This document shows, piece by piece, positions 4,585 through 9,494 of a stretch of 44,881 nt of DNA. A program made the translations under genes and the position numbers. Below the pieces are notes generated by a model, which made no database searches, was not told where the DNA came from, and was given only the letters and a program-made list of their open reading frames with translations. The first letter of the stretch is position 1. The number at the start of each line of letters is the position of its first letter. Source of the stretch: a phage; sequence record PV730301.1; one strand, 5' to 3'.

Positions 4585-4774
4585 TGTTAACTCTCTTAAA
4601 TCGGGCTATGCCCGACTCGTTAATGTTGCCTATTTCAAAGAAGCTGCGATATTTAGGCGAATACATTCTTACGTCGCCATTCTCGAGGGTGATCCCTCCA
4701 TATACAGCACCTACTTCGAATCCATTTTTCTCCGCGTACGGACTCACATCGGTGCATTCATACATATCTTTCAT
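4574..4774 (-). CDS. hypothetical protein
   Basis: ATGA overlap with the upstream phosphoesterase gene (translational coupling). Confidence 0.45.
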   Translation of the reverse strand: MKDMYECTDVSPYAEKNGFEVGAVYGGITLENGDVRMYSPKYRSFFEIGNINESGIARFKRVNSDK

Positions 4775-5901
4775 CCCAGCATCTCCGGTGAAATAGTTAA
4801 ACGTGCGACCTCACCATATTCGGCGCTATAAGTAATTACGTTCGCACTACGGCCAGACATCCATCCGCCGCGGGAGGCGTAGGCGTCTTTAGCCGCTAAA
4901 GTGCGGTGTTGCTCAACAATCATGTTACGGCTTTCTACAATCTTTTGGTGGTGCAGGTGGCCTACGTGGGCGTAGCTGTAAACGCTCTCGCCGAACGCTT
5001 TGCGGAACTTAGCAATCATAACCGGTTCGATAGCGTCGAAGCGTGCTTTATGCCCGTGGTGAAAGAACAGGGTCGTTTTGCCGTGTTGCACCATCTTGTA
5101 AACATCCGGCGACGTGTCGACGATCACTCGGCTGTCTTTTGAGTATAAAGTCGTGAACATTTCCGCCAACCACACAGACCCTACAGGGTCGTGATTTCCT
5201 TGCACGATAAGCAAGCGAACATTTTTGTGTTTAACCAGCGCCATATCAACAACACGGCGGACCATACGAATCATGTAGCGGACAAGTTTCTGGTAGCGAG
5301 TGTCTGCGTCCAACACATGGCGCGACTCAGGGGTGACGGCATCCAGACTATCGAAGTGCGCGAAGTCCCCAAGCAGGTTAATAACTCCTGTTCCCGCGTC
5401 CGGTGCTTTCTGAAACGCAGCATCAAACCAGCGAGAGAACAGGTCTTCCGCAATCTTCATGTCCCAGTCGTCGCCGCTCTCATCGGCCCATGCCAGCATA
5501 CCGAGATGAAAATCAGATACAGTGTAAAGATTGAGTAGTTTATCGTCACGTTTGGCTCGAACGGCTTTAACAGGCGCAACGGGCGTAATCTCTGATTTCA
5601 TGCCTTCAATTACGGCTTTCATCAACTCGACCTGACGTTCGGCATCGGTGTCGGTCTTAACCCATTGCAACTTAGTGTTGCCGAACTCGTCCACAAGCGA
5701 CGACGTGCCTTTAATCTTGTAGCCGTCTGGTACGAGGTGGCTGACGTCCCGCCCGTGACCTACTCCTTTCTTAGCCAGCTTCGCTTTACGGATACGAATA
5801 ACGCGGTCTGAGATGCCGTATTTACGGGCGATGTCGATAATCTTTGTTCCGGCGTTCAATTCTTCCTGCAACTGTTCGTCGGTTATTTTCTTCCTGGCCA
5901 T
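4771..5901 (-). CDS. N-terminal HTH domain fused to a calcineurin-like metallophosphoesterase (phosphatase or nuclease)
   Basis: Motifs DFH, GDFAHFD, GNHD, HHGH and GHLHH match the metallophosphoesterase signature; N-terminal IIDIARKYGISDRVI is HTH-like; GAGGA RBS. Confidence 0.7.
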   Translation of the reverse strand: MARKKITDEQLQEELNAGTKIIDIARKYGISDRVIRIRKAKLAKKGVGHGRDVSHLVPDGYKIKGTSSLVDEFGNTKLQWVKTDTDAERQVELMKAVIEGMKSEITPVAPVKAVRAKRDDKLLNLYTVSDFHLGMLAWADESGDDWDMKIAEDLFSRWFDAAFQKAPDAGTGVINLLGDFAHFDSLDAVTPESRHVLDADTRYQKLVRYMIRMVRRVVDMALVKHKNVRLLIVQGNHDPVGSVWLAEMFTTLYSKDSRVIVDTSPDVYKMVQHGKTTLFFHHGHKARFDAIEPVMIAKFRKAFGESVYSYAHVGHLHHQKIVESRNMIVEQHRTLAAKDAYASRGGWMSGRSANVITYSAEYGEVARLTISPEMLG

Positions 5902-5938
5902 GCTTATTCCTCGTGCTTAGGATTTGTCCTATACTAGC

Positions 5939-6130
5939 TCACTTCTCTTTGACATTCGAGTTGCAAGCCCAGATTAAAATAAATACCCACGGCAGCAGAA
6001 TCCAGCCAAGAAACAGGTTGGCCATGAATATCGCTAACTTCGCTTTATGGTCGCGGAAATACGCAACCAGGAAAGGCGCAAAATAGGCTAGTAGTGCAAA
6101 CAGAATTAGGGAAACTGGTAAACTGGACAT
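5939..6130 (-). CDS. Imm-like superinfection immunity membrane protein
   Basis: YFAPFLVAYFRDHKAKLAIFMANLFLGWILLPWVFILIWA matches the superinfection-immunity (Imm) pattern; AAGGAG RBS before the ATG at 6130. Confidence 0.6.
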   Translation of the reverse strand: MSSLPVSLILFALLAYFAPFLVAYFRDHKAKLAIFMANLFLGWILLPWVFILIWACNSNVKEK

Positions 6131-6160
6131 TTTAAACTCCTTCATTGTTGGTGTAAGTGA

Positions 6161-6189
6161 ATAGTACCCTATTATATTGGGGTGCGCAA
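6161..6189 (-). promoter_or_regulatory. sigma70-like promoter for the Imm/phosphoesterase operon (TTGCGC-17-TACTAT) containing the conserved TGAATAGT..CTATTATA element
   Basis: Hexamers and 17-bp spacing read from the sequence; the 23-mer is identical to 41997..42019. Confidence 0.45.
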
Positions 6190-6296
6190 GTAGTGTGCTA
6201 GAATAAGTTTGCGCCTAGTGTCGCACACGAAAAGCGGGTGGTTCCCGTCTGGCGCATTAACCTTAACCTGTAACCTCTTAACCAAAGGATTAAAGA

Positions 6297-6713
6297 ATGA
6301 AACTTTCTGATTTTTATTTCGAAGAGAAAGCACTGGTGGGCAAGAAGATGCCTATTCTCCTGCCAAATGGCGAAGACTCAGGTGAGTGGCTTAACGTCGT
6401 AAGTCCTGACGCCGATGTCGCCGTTAAAGCAGGGCGTGCTTTCATTATCGCGTACCGCCGTGGGCTGGCGCGTTTTGAAGAACTGGAAAAGGCCGCCAAA
6501 GAATCCGGCGACTATACTGAATATAACCTGGCGGTTAACGAACTGGCTGAAGACCTCAACCGACAACTCGCGGCGGAAGTCGTAAACGGCTGGAGCTTTG
6601 ATGAGCCTTTCTCTAAAGAAGCATTTAACAAATTGCTGGGCCAGTTCAAGGCATTAGGGACACAGGTGGCCGCGTTCCATAACGCCGAGCGCAAAGCATT
6701 ACAGGAAAAGTAG
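6297..6713 (+). CDS. tail assembly chaperone (gpG-like)
   Basis: Position immediately upstream of the tape measure gene; AAAGGA RBS; overlapping -1 frame ORF downstream. Confidence 0.5.
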   Translation: MKLSDFYFEEKALVGKKMPILLPNGEDSGEWLNVVSPDADVAVKAGRAFIIAYRRGLARFEELEKAAKESGDYTEYNLAVNELAEDLNRQLAAEVVNGWSFDEPFSKEAFNKLLGQFKALGTQVAAFHNAERKALQEK

Positions 6714-6745
6714 ACGCGCTGTACAGGTTCGCCACCTACGAGTTT

Positions 6746-7078
6746 GTGGATAAGCATAAAATCAGAGAGTTTGATTCTATAGCCGACGGACACGAACAGG
6801 CGCTTATCGCGATGGGTGTAATCGATAAGAAAAAACGTGCAGCGCGACGGGGTGGGCCAGAATGCCCGCCCCTTTTTATATCCACCTTTGAGACGTACTG
6901 TGACATTAAGTTTACGCGACACGTGCGTGAGGACGCTGTAGTATTGTTTGCAAGAGAATCTGTTACGTGGCAAGACCTGAAAGCCTATCTCGATGTTACG
7001 CAAAAACAGCTTAGCCTGTTCGAGATAGACATTATCATGGGCTTAGAAGCAATCTTTGAAGGTAGAAATCATGGCTGA
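6746..7078 (+). CDS. putative frameshift extension of the tail assembly chaperone (gpT-like)
   Basis: ORF in the -1 frame, open from 6683 and overlapping the chaperone 3' end; no own SD; ends inside the tape measure start. Confidence 0.35.
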   Translation: MDKHKIREFDSIADGHEQALIAMGVIDKKKRAARRGGPECPPLFISTFETYCDIKFTRHVREDAVVLFARESVTWQDLKAYLDVTQKQLSLFEIDIIMGLEAIFEGRNHG

Positions 7079-9494
7079 TACCGCTAGTTTAATAGTACGA
7101 GTATCATCGACCGGCGTCGATAAAACCACATCACAACTGAACGGGCTTACTAAAGCCGCAGGCGCTGCGGCTGCCGCCGTTGTCAGTCTGGAAACCGCCA
7201 AGCAGGTGTTCAGTGCGCTGGTGGAGTCTCAGCGCAACTTCGATAAGCTGAACTCCGGCCTTATCACAATGACCGGGAGCGCCAAGAACGCGGCTAAGGC
7301 TTTCAGTGTCCTGCAACAGTTCGCAAAAGAAACTCCGTATGGCCTCAATCAGGCGGTAGAGGGGTTTACCAAGCTCGTGGCTCTCGGTCTTAACCCAAGC
7401 AAAGAGGCGCTGATTTCCTACGGCAACACCGCAGCGGCTATGGGTAAAGACCTTAATCAGATGATTGAGGCCGTAGCGGACGCCAGTACATTTGAATTTG
7501 AGCGACTGAAAGAGTTTGGCATTAAGTCGTCACAGCAGGCGGATACAGTTTCGTTCACGTTCCGCGGTGTCACCACCACGGTTAAAAAGAACTCCGAAGA
7601 GATTCAGAAATACCTGTTAAACATCGGCAACACCGATTTCGCCGGGGCGATGGAGACGCGCTCGAAGACATTAGATGGTCAGTTGTCGAGCCTGGCAGAC
7701 TCTTTCGATGGCCTTGTACTCGCGGTGGCGCAATCCGGTTTTGGCGATGCCGTAGGCGAACAAGCGGCGACAGCGGAAGATGCTATCACGGCACTCACCG
7801 ACGCCATCGCGTCTAATGAGATAGCCGCTACGCTCCAGGATTGGGTAACGCTGTTCAATGAATCGTTCAAGTTTATTTCTGATGCCTTAAACGACCTGGC
7901 ATACGATACCGAGGACAAATCCGCGGACATGTCAGACTCGCTGGGGACTATCCCGGACGCTATCCGTGAGTGGTTGCCTGATATACAGCAGACATTTCAC
8001 GAGGTTATTGCGTGGTTCCAGCGCATTGACGATTACGCCGTAGCGTTAGGTCAGACTCTTGCCGACGTGTTCGACCCAAGCAAAACGGCAGCGCTCACAT
8101 TTAAAAACCTGACCGCAGAGGCCGACGCCGCATACGCTGCCAGCATAAAACGCGCAGAGGCCGAATCACAGGCCATCACCAACAGGTCTAAGCAGCGTAA
8201 GAAAGAAATTGAGGAACAGCGCAAGCAGTACGACGAGCGCAAGAAGCAAGAAATTGACTTAGCCAGCCTTGTTAATAAAAATGGCGGAACTGGCGGAACC
8301 GGAAATACCAACGACAAAGACGCGAAAGCCGCTGCTAAGAAAGCGGAGCAATTGCGCAAACAGGCCCAGGATTATCTGGACACTTTGGCGCGTCAGAACA
8401 ACGATGAGTTAAAGGCTATTGACGCGCAGGAACAGCAGAAACTTAAAGAGGCCGCTAAATACCGAAAAGAAGGGGCGCTAACCGCTGAAGAGTATGAAAA
8501 GGCGAAAACCGCAATAGTTCTTCAATACGGACAAAAGCGCCAGGACGCTCTTGATAAAGAGTTAGCCGAGGAGCAGAAAAAACTGCAACAAGGCGTGGCT
8601 GTTCTGGCGTCAATCGACCCTATCGCAAACTTACAGCTCGAGCGGCAGAAGAGACTCGCAGTTATAGAGGAATACGAGGCCCAAGAAAACTCAGTACATG
8701 AAGTCGCGTTACAGGCGCGGGCGGAACTGGACAAGCAATATAACGATGGGCTGGCTGCCGCCGCCGAGGAGCGTTTCCGCAACCAATCCGAATGGAACAA
8801 CATGTTAATGGACTCCCTCGATGCGGTTGGCGCATCTGCATCCAGTTCCATAGTCGGTCTTATTAACGGCACACAGACCGCGAGTGAGGCAATGGCAAAC
8901 TTGGGCAACGCTATTCTATCCTCAGTCGTTTCAGGGTTAACACAGATGGGAGTGGAGTACCTGAAAAACATGATTATCGGCCAAACGGCATCCGCAGCGA
9001 CTATAGCGACCGCATCGGCTACCGGAGCGGCGATTGCCGCAGCGTATGCCCCCGCCGCGGCTATGGCGTCCCTGGCGTCATTTGGGGCCAACAGTGTTCC
9101 AGCTATGTCGGGCATCACAACCACGGTGGCGAGTACCCAAGCGTTAGCCTTAACTGGATTCCGCGAACAAGGCGGCCAAATGAACGCTGGCGGCAGCTAT
9201 CTTGTTGGTGAGCGTGGCCCTGAGATTATTAAGATGGCGGGGGCAGGGCGTGCGGTTAACTCAAGTCAAACACGGCAACAGTTAAGTGGCAACAATAGCG
9301 GAAATAGTGGACCATCTAATGTTACCATTGTAAATAACACATCGAGTCATATTGGCAACGTATCCACTGAGCAGGATGATGAGGGGCGCTTGCGTATCAT
9401 TATCTCTGAGCAGGTGGCTTCTGAGCTAATGAACAGCAACAGTCGGATTAGCAAGGCCCGCAAGTCTACGCGAAATGCACCTGGCTTTAAGTGA
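7071..9494 (+). CDS. tail tape measure protein
   Basis: About 800 aa, Ala/Gln/Lys-rich coiled-coil character, follows the chaperone pair; GAAGGT RBS before ATG 7071. Confidence 0.85.
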   Translation: MADTASLIVRVSSTGVDKTTSQLNGLTKAAGAAAAAVVSLETAKQVFSALVESQRNFDKLNSGLITMTGSAKNAAKAFSVLQQFAKETPYGLNQAVEGFTKLVALGLNPSKEALISYGNTAAAMGKDLNQMIEAVADASTFEFERLKEFGIKSSQQADTVSFTFRGVTTTVKKNSEEIQKYLLNIGNTDFAGAMETRSKTLDGQLSSLADSFDGLVLAVAQSGFGDAVGEQAATAEDAITALTDAIASNEIAATLQDWVTLFNESFKFISDALNDLAYDTEDKSADMSDSLGTIPDAIREWLPDIQQTFHEVIAWFQRIDDYAVALGQTLADVFDPSKTAALTFKNLTAEADAAYAASIKRAEAESQAITNRSKQRKKEIEEQRKQYDERKKQEIDLASLVNKNGGTGGTGNTNDKDAKAAAKKAEQLRKQAQDYLDTLARQNNDELKAIDAQEQQKLKEAAKYRKEGALTAEEYEKAKTAIVLQYGQKRQDALDKELAEEQKKLQQGVAVLASIDPIANLQLERQKRLAVIEEYEAQENSVHEVALQARAELDKQYNDGLAAAAEERFRNQSEWNNMLMDSLDAVGASASSSIVGLINGTQTASEAMANLGNAILSSVVSGLTQMGVEYLKNMIIGQTASAATIATASATGAAIAAAYAPAAAMASLASFGANSVPAMSGITTTVASTQALALTGFREQGGQMNAGGSYLVGERGPEIIKMAGAGRAVNSSQTRQQLSGNNSGNSGPSNVTIVNNTSSHIGNVSTEQDDEGRLRIIISEQVASELMNSNSRISKARKSTRNAPGFK

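What the first reader, a model, noticed from the sequence alone, without database searches (positions are those of the whole stretch)
6683..6713. Possible programmed -1 frameshift joining the two tail assembly chaperone ORFs
Seen in sequence: the -1 frame is open from 6683, overlapping the last 10 codons of the chaperone ORF, and continues to 7078 inside the tape measure start. The downstream ORF has no ribosome-binding site. The only slippery-like run is AGGAAAAG (6703..6710), which is not a canonical XXXYYYZ heptamer. Established knowledge: gpG/gpGT-type frameshifting is widespread in tailed phages.
Basis: partly seen in the sequence, partly recalled or inferred. Interest (0 to 1): 0.35.

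Follow-up and report, generated by a model that had tools for sequence, protein, structure and literature searches.

The report
Tail chaperone frameshift with RNA stem
This is the ordinary tail-assembly-chaperone -1 ribosomal frameshift of a K1G-like coliphage, already annotated in close relatives, but it uses a minimal A_AAG slip site next to the stop codon and probably a conserved long-range RNA stem, which I did not find described in the papers I searched.

Summary
The chaperone ORF (6297-6713) ends ...GAA AAG UAG. The -1 frame is open from 6683 to 7078 and has no credible start or ribosome-binding site. It encodes a conserved T domain (Pfam Phage_TAC_18).

The window is a Kagunavirus, about 95% identical to phage K1G. 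The K1G records already carry the joined product with the same junction (QEK|VDALY).

Across 30 relatives (<90% nt identity; T domain down to 38% aa identity), A_AAG and the preceding third-position A never vary. Lys codons elsewhere are roughly evenly split between AAA and AAG. Two lineages carry canonical heptamers at the same spot: G_GGA_AAG and A_AAA_AAG.

A helix starts 4-5 nt after AAG. In the window, 6715-6724 pairs with 6837-6846. Every relative has one, with compensatory changes. Its 3' arm lies at +130 or +204 depending on lineage.

The best reading is -1 frameshifting on an NNA_AAG site helped by this stem, as in insertion sequence IS3. It would yield a few percent of G-T fusion. 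Nothing has been shown experimentally.

The frameshift itself is known; the signal architecture is a modest addition.

The parts
6297..6713 (+). Frame-0 tail assembly chaperone ORF (gpG analogue), 138 aa, ending ...LQEK*
   Evidence: ORF list. Pfam Phage_TAC_4, E=3.8e-5. Annotated as tail assembly chaperone in K1G and fKuEco01.
6704..6710 (+). Slip site G_GAA_AAG. The functional core is the hexamer GAA_AAG (6705-6710), that is the tetramer A_AAG (6707-6710).
   Evidence: A_AAG and the preceding third-position A are invariant in 30/30 representatives and 61 distinct contexts. Canonical G_GGA_AAG and A_AAA_AAG occupy the same position in L025 and in L060/L063.
6711..6713 (+). UAG stop of the chaperone ORF, directly 3' of the slip codon. 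Its first two bases are the second and third bases of the first -1-frame codon, GUA (6710-6712).
   Evidence: TAG or TAA is adjacent to AAG in 29/30 representatives. In L054 it is one codon later.
6715..6724 (+). 5' arm of the long-range helix (CGCGCUGUAC), starting 4 nt after AAG. The conserved core GCGYUG starts 5 nt after AAG.
   Evidence: Present in the MFE and centroid folds of 6703-6860. Pair probability 0.76-1.00. GCG YTG is frozen at synonymous sites in 30/30 representatives.
6837..6846 (+). 3' arm of the long-range helix (GUGCAGCGCG). It pairs with 6715-6724 over 10 bp with one G-U.
   Evidence: Duplex -17.4 to -20.0 kcal/mol. In class I, 6 pairs show compensatory changes. Class II has the 3' arm at +194..+210 instead, with 3 compensatory pairs.
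6710..7078 (+). -1 frame extension (gpT analogue), 122 codons from GUA 6710-6712 to TGA 7076-7078. The predicted G-T fusion is 260 aa with junction ...LQEK|VDALYRF...
   Evidence: Translation. Pfam Phage_TAC_18, E=1.2e-18. tblastn hits align from residue 1-2 in 492 of 494 phage records. The K1G fusion with the same junction exists as ADA82267.1 / YP_009168804.1.
7071..9494 (+). Tape measure protein gene. It overlaps the end of the -1 ORF by 8 nt (ATGGCTGA).
   Evidence: ORF list. Pfam TMP_3. SD-like GAAGGUAG upstream. The K1G annotation starts at the equivalent ATG.

Best explanation
This is the gpG/gpGT-type recoding site of a Kagunavirus (Guernseyvirinae) siphophage.

Most ribosomes translate the chaperone ORF to ...GAA AAG and terminate at UAG (6711-6713), giving the 138-aa G protein. 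A small fraction slips back one base when tRNA-Lys on AAG (6708-6710) re-pairs with AAA (6707-6709). Decoding then continues GUA GAC GCG CUG... in the -1 frame to 7078. The product is a 260-aa G-T fusion (...LQEK-VDALYRF...).

The slip site is a minimal NNA_AAG hexamer, not an X_XXY_YYZ heptamer. Such sites are barely shifty on their own in E. coli. The shift is therefore probably driven by a conserved helix whose 5' arm (6715-6724) starts 4-5 nt after the slip codon. Its 3' arm lies about 115 nt downstream (6837-6846). Together they close a multibranched domain at the mRNA entrance of the ribosome.

The adjacent stop codon may add a pause. It also means that non-shifted ribosomes never translate through the helix.

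Shown here: the ORF geometry, the invariance of the motif, the helix and its covariation, and the existing annotation. Inferred: that slippage happens, its efficiency (I guess 1-5%, by analogy with IS3 and lambda), and that the helix is the stimulator.
For: 1. ORF geometry, and no usable start or SD for the -1 ORF.
2. The G and T parts hit tail-assembly-chaperone Pfam families.
3. A_AAG plus the preceding A is invariant in 30/30 representatives, while other Lys columns pool to 79 AAG and 69 AAA. A stop is adjacent in 29/30.
4. Canonical G_GGA_AAG (RP180) and A_AAA_AAG (L060/L063) occur at the identical position.
5. Ala7 and Arg8 of the -1 frame, upstream of the window's GTG 6746, are conserved with free synonymous variation. 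No shared start codon exists.
6. Long-range helix. All 30 representatives have a 5' arm at +5/+6 that pairs with +126..+136 (class I, duplex -17.8 to -21.5 kcal/mol) or +194..+210 (class II, 8-16 contiguous bp, duplex -18.9 to -27.8 kcal/mol).
   - 78-83% of cells are paired, against 19-49% when the partner is slid by 1-3 columns.
   - 6 (class I) and 3 (class II) pairs show compensatory changes.
   - The covariation score beats 500/500 shuffles.
   - Helices of >=13 bp occur in 13/30 representatives against 0.3% of control probes.
   - Pair probability is about 1.0 in most class II folds, but <=0.33 in one or both folding contexts for six representatives.
7. Published data. Z_ZZN tetramers alone are at background (0.147% against 0.112%). 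With the IS3 pseudoknot placed 5 nt downstream, the six effective tetramers give 0.26-5.6%, with A_AAG ranked far above the rest (PMC4066793). NNA_AAG sites are used by IS1222 and B. subtilis cdd (PMC5009743).
8. The joined product with this junction is deposited for K1G, fKuEco01 and Shemara.
Against: - There is no experimental evidence for any Guernseyvirinae phage: no fusion protein, no reporter assay.
- In the window alone the helix is unremarkable. A 10-bp contiguous helix occurs for about 10% of control probes, and 3/68 control probes give an equal or better duplex energy.
- In four class I relatives (L027, L030, L047, L051) the predicted pair probability is low in at least one folding context.
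- Both arms in class II encode conserved peptides (ALYEF and KFIQR), so part of the complementarity could be carried by protein constraint.
- A 4-5 nt spacer is at the short end of the usual 5-9 nt.
- No local hairpin or pseudoknot was found.
- One published genome note states that these phages have no canonical slippery sequence and annotates a separate ORF (PMC6776780).
Confidence: 0.78

Rival explanations
1. The frameshift is real, but the long-range helix is not its stimulator. It would instead serve mRNA stability, control of tape measure translation or transcription attenuation, or be a by-product of coding constraints. Slippage would then rely on A_AAG plus the adjacent slow stop codon: tRNA-Lys would slip in the P site while UAG waits in the A site.
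For: - The stop is adjacent to AAG in 29/30 representatives.
- The helix in the window is not exceptional on energy alone.
- The class II arms encode conserved peptides.
- A terminator-like hairpin sits right after the 3' arm, which hints at other RNA-level roles.
Against: - The 5' arm keeps a fixed distance of 4-5 nt from the slip codon in all 30 representatives, while the 3' arm moved between +130 and +204. That pattern fits an element defined by its distance to the slip site.
- Tetramers without a stimulator are at background in E. coli (PMC4066793).
- In L054 the stop is displaced by one codon, yet A_AAG and the helix are kept.
Confidence: 0.13
2. There is no frameshift. The T protein is made on its own, by initiation or termination-reinitiation at the CUG/UUG codon 6719 (using AGGA 6703-6706 as an SD) or at GUG 6746. 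This is how Ent1, Eta, Jersey and Shashou are annotated.
For: - Separate ORFs are annotated in several records.
- AGGA lies 12 nt upstream of CUG 6719, with an anti-SD duplex of -4.3 kcal/mol.
- The stop and the candidate start are 5 nt apart.
Against: - The codon is CUG in 27/30 representatives and UUG in only 3.
- GGAA is absent in the 10/30 representatives with GCA, UCA or AAA before AAG.
- The codon lies inside a stable helix.
- GUG 6746 is not conserved (ATA, GTC and GTT in relatives) and has a poor SD.
- This model gives no reason for the frozen A_AAG, or for canonical heptamers at that spot.
- In the lambda paradigm the T domain works only when fused to G (PMC5009743).
Confidence: 0.07
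3. The -1 ORF is a non-functional or chance open frame.
For: None beyond the lack of a start codon.
Against: - Pfam Phage_TAC_18, E=1.2e-18.
- 494 phage records encode a homologue, with full-length alignment in 492 of them.
- 29 invariant residues across 8 diverse sequences, with synonymous variation.
Confidence: 0.01

Closest known systems
Phage lambda gpG/gpGT -1 programmed frameshift, and the conserved tail-assembly-chaperone frameshift of tailed phages (Levin 1993; Xu 2004, 2013, 2014, as summarised in PMC5009743)
   Same: - Two overlapping ORFs lie immediately upstream of the tape measure gene.
- The downstream ORF is in the -1 frame without its own start.
- The shift occurs on ...A_AAG near the end of G.
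- The product is a G-T fusion, expected at a low ratio to G.
- Lambda's site G_GGA_AAG differs from the window's G_GAA_AAG by one base, and is present as such in Raoultella phage RP180.
   Different: - The site here is not X_XXY_YYZ. Only the A-site half (A_AAG) is conserved across the family.
- The G stop codon directly follows the slip codon.
- A conserved long-range helix starts 4-5 nt downstream. No stimulator is mentioned for lambda in the passages I read.
- The G/T/tape-measure module is separated from the tail tube gene by an inverted gene cassette.
IS3 transposase frameshift signal (A_AAG tetramer plus a downstream pseudoknot)
   Same: - The same minimal A_AAG slip site.
- A structured stimulator beginning about 5 nt downstream.
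- Frameshifting in E. coli depends on both parts, with efficiency up to about 5.6% (PMC4066793; PMC6815119).
   Different: The stimulator here is a helix closed over 115-190 nt, not a compact pseudoknot. No pseudoknot is evident. The gene is a phage assembly chaperone, not a transposase.
IS1222 (G_CGA_AAG) and Bacillus subtilis cdd (A_CGA_AAG) hexanucleotide -1 frameshifting
   Same: An NNA_AAG site where only tRNA-Lys re-pairs cognately. The identity of the 5' codon modulates efficiency (PMC5009743).
   Different: The 5' codon here is GAA (GCA, UCA, GGA or AAA in relatives), not CGA. I found no conserved upstream Shine-Dalgarno stimulator, which is how I recall the cdd signal working.
IS911 three-way-junction stimulator
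   Same: An elaborate multibranched 3' structure acts as the stimulator (PMC5009743). The window's MFE fold has the long-range helix closing two internal hairpins.
   Different: IS911 uses the heptamer A_AAA_AAG together with more than one stimulatory element (PMC4066793). The internal branches here are not conserved or tested.

Membership tests
gpG/gpGT-type tail assembly chaperone -1 frameshift | Two overlapping ORFs directly upstream of the tape measure gene, in the tail module | tested here: met
   6297-6713 and 6683-7078 precede the tape measure gene (ATG 7071). One deviation: the tail tube gene is not adjacent but separated by an inverted cassette.
gpG/gpGT-type tail assembly chaperone -1 frameshift | Downstream ORF in the -1 frame with no own start codon or RBS | tested here: met
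   GTG 6746 has an anti-SD duplex of -2.5 kcal/mol and is not conserved. CTG 6719 is a non-canonical start.
gpG/gpGT-type tail assembly chaperone -1 frameshift | Both parts belong to tail-assembly-chaperone protein families | tested here: met
   Pfam Phage_TAC_4 (24.4 bits, cut-off 21.1) and Phage_TAC_18 (67.5 bits, cut-off 27).
gpG/gpGT-type tail assembly chaperone -1 frameshift | Conserved slippery sequence in the overlap | tested here: met
   NNA_AAG is invariant in 30/30 representatives.
gpG/gpGT-type tail assembly chaperone -1 frameshift | Fusion protein made at a low ratio and required for tail assembly | not testable with these tools
   Only annotation exists. The searches returned no paper reporting a proteomic or genetic test for these phages.
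Canonical X_XXY_YYZ heptamer -1 PRF | Heptamer that lets both the P-site and A-site tRNAs re-pair | tested here: not met
   The window has G_GAA_AAG. GAA to GGA re-pairing needs a central G-U. Relatives have GCA or UCA, which cannot re-pair. The heptamer is canonical only in RP180 (G_GGA_AAG) and L060/L063 (A_AAA_AAG).
Z_ZZN tetramer / NNA_AAG hexamer -1 PRF with 3' stimulator (IS3, IS1222 type) | In-frame A_AAG | tested here: met
   6707-6710, with frame-0 codon AAG at 6708-6710.
Z_ZZN tetramer / NNA_AAG hexamer -1 PRF with 3' stimulator (IS3, IS1222 type) | Stable RNA structure starting about 5-9 nt 3' of the motif | tested here: met
   The helix starts 4 nt (window) to 5 nt (conserved core) after AAG. 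It is conserved, with covariation. Its function as a stimulator is inferred, not tested.
Z_ZZN tetramer / NNA_AAG hexamer -1 PRF with 3' stimulator (IS3, IS1222 type) | Measured frameshifting that depends on both motif and structure | not testable with these tools
   This needs a reporter assay.
Any curated RNA family (Rfam 15) | Covariance-model match | tested here: not met
   No match with E<=1 in 6500-7100.

The most novel reading that the evidence does not exclude
The conserved long-range helix is an obligatory stimulator of A_AAG -1 frameshifting in the tail chaperone genes of the whole Guernseyvirinae subfamily. Its 5' arm is fixed 4-5 nt after the slip codon. Its 3' arm migrated during evolution between +130 and +204.

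Because the G stop codon lies between the slip site and the helix, some 95% or more of ribosomes never translate through it, so a slowly refolding long-range structure would stay formed. Together with the terminator-like hairpin just behind the 3' arm (6849-6877), it could form one RNA device that sets the G : GT : tape measure stoichiometry.
Probability: 0.45. Interest if true: 0.5.

Novelty: new member of a known kind. Interest (0 to 1): 0.35.

Why it matters
The frameshift itself adds nothing new. It is the standard way tailed phages make a small amount of G-T fusion, and it is already annotated in K1G.

What is useful is that public records for this subfamily disagree:
- Some join the two ORFs.
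- Some call a separate ORF from a CTG or TTG codon.
- One paper states that no slippery sequence exists.

The comparative data settle where the shift happens and why the site looks non-canonical.

If the helix is confirmed, it would be a clear, covariation-supported case of a phage tail-chaperone frameshift that depends on an RNA stimulator. It would also be a natural example of a stimulator whose distal arm has moved. That is relevant to frameshift predictors, which scan only 50-100 nt downstream (PMC10885494) and would miss it.

Tried and rejected
- **Local stimulatory hairpin or pseudoknot.** The fold of 6703-6800 has z = +0.15. RNAalifold on -40..+110 of 30 representatives gave only a 3-bp helix at -0.74 kcal/mol.
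- **Known RNA family.** No Rfam match.
- **Upstream Shine-Dalgarno stimulator.** Nothing is conserved 10-14 nt upstream of the slip site. The GGAA inside the site is absent in a third of lineages.
- **Hairpin enclosing the slip site** (AGCGC 6688-6692 with GCGCU 6716-6720). It is not conserved in register, and it is incompatible with a ribosome sitting on the site.
- **Transcriptional slippage.** The A run is only 4 nt.
- **Internal starts** (ATT 6698, CTG 6719, GTG 6746, ATG 6812). All have poor SD or are non-canonical or not conserved. ATG 6812 would remove 34 conserved residues.
- **Energy alone as evidence for the helix.** It is not convincing for a single genome. Control probes average -17.7 +/- 4.3 kcal/mol against -23.0 observed, and for the window 3/68 controls are as good. 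The argument therefore rests on register, contiguity and covariation.
- **Literature.** No paper holds both 'Kagunavirus' and 'frameshift'. The Jerseyvirinae paper (PMID 25663216) and Licznar 2003 are not in the library.

Full report
**Identity of the window**

Region 6100-7300 matches 117 phage records at 80-99% nucleotide identity. Nearly all are Escherichia Kagunavirus phages; the best are ST20, Raoultella phage RP180 and K1G at about 95%. The window is therefore a K1G-like siphophage of the subfamily Guernseyvirinae.

**Check of the observation**

- The frame-0 ORF 6297-6713 encodes 138 aa ending ...CAG GAA AAG TAG. It hits Pfam Phage_TAC_4.
- The -1 frame has TAA at 6680-6682 and is then open from 6683 to TGA 7076-7078. 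Its translation hits Pfam Phage_TAC_18 at E=1.2e-18.
- The tape measure gene starts at ATG 7071 and overlaps the end of the -1 ORF by 8 nt. The K1G annotation uses the equivalent ATG.
- GTG 6746 is the first ATG/GTG/TTG codon in the -1 frame. It has a poor anti-SD match (-2.5 kcal/mol, against -5.4 and -5.0 for the two real starts nearby).
- The only in-frame slip motif in 6683-6713 is A_AAG (6707-6710), inside G_GAA_AAG.

**Is it already known?**

- RefSeq and GenBank records of K1G, fKuEco01, fPoEco01, fFiEco02, Shemara and Shelanagig carry a two-piece joined CDS. Four of these records (fPoEco01, fFiEco02, Shemara, Shelanagig) label it a frameshift product; K1G and fKuEco01 call it (putative) tail assembly chaperone.
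- I built the K1G fusion with junction ...LQEK|VDALY... It is an exact match to ADA82267.1, QNO11738.1 and YP_009168804.1. The Shemara fusion, built the same way, matches YP_010582519.1.
- Other records (Ent1, Eta, Jersey, Tsm2, Shashou) annotate a separate ORF.
[quoted passage not shown] Shashou nevertheless has the same CAG GAA AAG TAG.
- I found no experimental test.

**Comparative evidence for the slip site**

I collected 8 annotated relatives and 80 IMG/VR loci found with a T-domain alignment. T-domain identity runs down to 38%.

- Across 61 distinct junction contexts the sequence NNA AAG TAR is invariant. The one exception is L054, which has AAG TTA TAG.
- I reduced the set to 30 representatives below 90% nucleotide identity. 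In all 30 the last Lys codon is AAG and the third base of the preceding codon is A, whatever the amino acid: GAA x20, plus GCA, TCA and AAA. GGA occurs only in RP180, which is outside the 30.
- Nine other majority-Lys columns in the same sequences pool to 79 AAG and 69 AAA. In about 70 codon columns, the only other degenerate-codon columns with zero third-position entropy are the -1-frame codons GCG and YTG just downstream.
- Two lineages carry canonical heptamers at exactly this position: G_GGA_AAG in RP180 (L025) and A_AAA_AAG in L060/L063.
- The varying P-site codon shows that only the A-site half of the site is under selection. This is an NNA_AAG hexamer site, not a tandem-slippage heptamer.

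**Evidence that the -1 frame is read from the junction**

- tblastn hits of the -1 translation start at residue 1 or 2 in 492 of 494 phage records.
- Codons 1-4 (V-x-A-L) are constrained at the RNA level, by the stop codon and the helix, so they are not independent evidence.
- Ala7 and Arg8 do count. They keep the residue with free synonymous variation: Ala7 is GCC/GCG/GCA/GCT in 29/30, and Arg8 uses four CGN codons. Trp9 and the aromatic residue at codon 11 are also conserved. All lie upstream of the window's GTG 6746.
- The 'independent starts' annotated in orthologues are the Leu codon at +9. It is CTG in 27/30 representatives and TTG in 3, and it lies inside the helix.

**The long-range helix**

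The frozen GCGYUG, 6-11 nt after the G of AAG, has an exact complement CARCGC at a fixed distance. That distance is +130 in 9 representatives, including the window, and +204 in 18.

Extending the pairing gives two classes:

| Class | Pairing rule | Helix | Duplex energy |
|---|---|---|---|
| I (window, K1G-like, Ent1-like) | position i pairs with 141-i | window: 6715-6724 CGCGCUGUAC with 6837-6846 GUGCAGCGCG, 10 bp | -17.8 to -21.5 kcal/mol |
| II (Jersey, Shemara, Eta, Tsm2, fFiEco02 and others) | position i pairs with 215-i | 8-16 contiguous bp | -18.9 to -27.8 kcal/mol |

All 30 representatives have one or the other.

- In the window the helix is in both the MFE and centroid folds of 6703-6860. 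Its pair probability is 0.76-1.00.
- Pair counts for class II: 83% of cells are paired, against 19-49% when the partner is slid by 1-3 columns. Three pairs show compensatory change, and the covariation score beats 500/500 shuffles.
- Pair counts for class I: 78% paired, against 23-48% when slid. Six pairs are compensatory. One pair is C-G in 7 sequences and U-A in 6, with none unpaired. The score again beats 500/500 shuffles.
- Some compensations change both proteins. In L060, Tyr to His in the 5' arm goes with Ile to Met in the 3' arm.
- In class I the 3' arm lies in the variable linker of the T domain and encodes different peptides in different lineages.

The controls temper this. With gapped duplexes, control probes reach -17.7 +/- 4.3 kcal/mol against -23.0 observed, and for the window 3/68 controls are as good. 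Contiguous helices of >=10 bp occur for 9.6% of control probes, but in 22/30 representatives. Helices of >=13 bp occur for 0.3% of controls, but in 13/30 representatives. The case therefore rests on the family, not on the window alone.

**Mechanism**

- In E. coli, Z_ZZN tetramers without a stimulator are at background (0.147% against 0.112%). With the IS3 pseudoknot 5 nt downstream, six tetramers rise to 0.26-5.6%, and A_AAG ranks far above the rest (PMC4066793; PMC6815119).
- NNA_AAG sites are used by IS1222 and occur in B. subtilis cdd. Their efficiency depends on the 5' codon (PMC5009743).
- When AAG is in the A site, a helix starting 4-5 nt downstream begins at about +11/+12 from the first P-site base. 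That is where 3' stimulators are thought to act.

I therefore infer A-site slippage of tRNA-Lys from AAG to AAA, driven by the helix. It should give a few percent G-T fusion, comparable to lambda's 30:1 ratio.

The adjacent stop codon may add a pause. It also keeps non-shifted ribosomes from translating through the helix. That last point is my inference.

**Rivals**

| Rival | Confidence | Main point |
|---|---|---|
| Frameshift real, but the helix has another role | 0.13 | Argued against by the fixed 5'-arm distance and the background level of bare tetramers |
| Independent initiation or reinitiation at CUG/UUG or GUG | 0.07 | Does not explain the frozen A_AAG or the canonical heptamers; the start and the SD are not conserved |
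| Chance ORF | 0.01 | Excluded by protein conservation |

**Novelty and score**

The frameshift is a textbook phenomenon and is already annotated for near-identical genomes. The signal is of the IS3 kind: A_AAG plus a 3' structure. I did not find the conserved long-range helix, or the movement of its 3' arm, described in the papers I searched. Frameshift predictors that fold 50-100 nt downstream (PMC10885494) would miss it.

I file this as a new member of a known kind, with interest 0.35.

Noticed in passing
window 6849-6877: An intrinsic-terminator-like hairpin lies inside the -1 (T) ORF, 2 nt after the 3' arm of the long-range helix. It is GGGGUGGGC-CAGAAU-GCCCGCCCC (9 bp, -20.6 kcal/mol) followed by UUUUUAUAU. 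It encodes RGGPECPPLFI. A similar hairpin plus U tract, with different stem extensions, is present in roughly 10 of 30 relatives. It is absent from Jersey-, Ent1- and Shemara-like phages. It could attenuate transcription into the tape measure gene, because the T region is mostly ribosome-free.
   Followed up: partly
window 4771-6296: The chaperone/tape-measure module is not adjacent to the tail tube gene. A minus-strand cassette lies between them: a 376-aa metallophosphatase at 4771-5901 and a 68-aa superinfection immunity protein at 5939-6145, with more such genes upstream in K1G and Shashou. A 150-nt intergenic region follows at 6146-6296. The chaperone gene therefore seems to start its own transcription unit.
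   Followed up: partly
window 6706; L025 (Raoultella phage RP180): RP180 is about 96% identical to the window. A single A-to-G difference turns G_GAA_AAG into the canonical lambda-type heptamer G_GGA_AAG and changes the chaperone C-terminus from QEK to QGK. This is a natural test case for the effect of the P-site codon.
   Followed up: no
L054 (IMGVR_UViG_2162886012_000023), junction at 1498-1510: This is the only relative in which the chaperone stop codon is not adjacent to the slip codon (AAG TTA TAG). A_AAG and the helix are kept.
   Followed up: no
L051, L069 (about +87..+95 after the slip codon): Some class I relatives have a competing partner for the 5' arm. It is GCGGCGCU(G), from the conserved EAAL codons, and it lowers the predicted probability of the +130 helix. 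It is either a third possible position for the 3' arm or an alternative fold.
   Followed up: no
L091 (NZ_JACVEL010000023.1, Taishania pollutisoli assembly): The only hit in the bacterial and archaeal genome collection is a 13-kb contig in the genome assembly of Taishania pollutisoli strain CZZ-1, a species unrelated to the Escherichia, Salmonella and Serratia hosts of the phage hits. Its T domain is 54% identical to the window's. It looks like a phage contig or contamination rather than a prophage of that organism.
   Followed up: no
window 7056-7071: The mechanical ORF list starts the tape measure ORF at TTG 7056. The SD-like GAAGGUAG and the annotations of relatives point to ATG 7071 instead.
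   Followed up: yes
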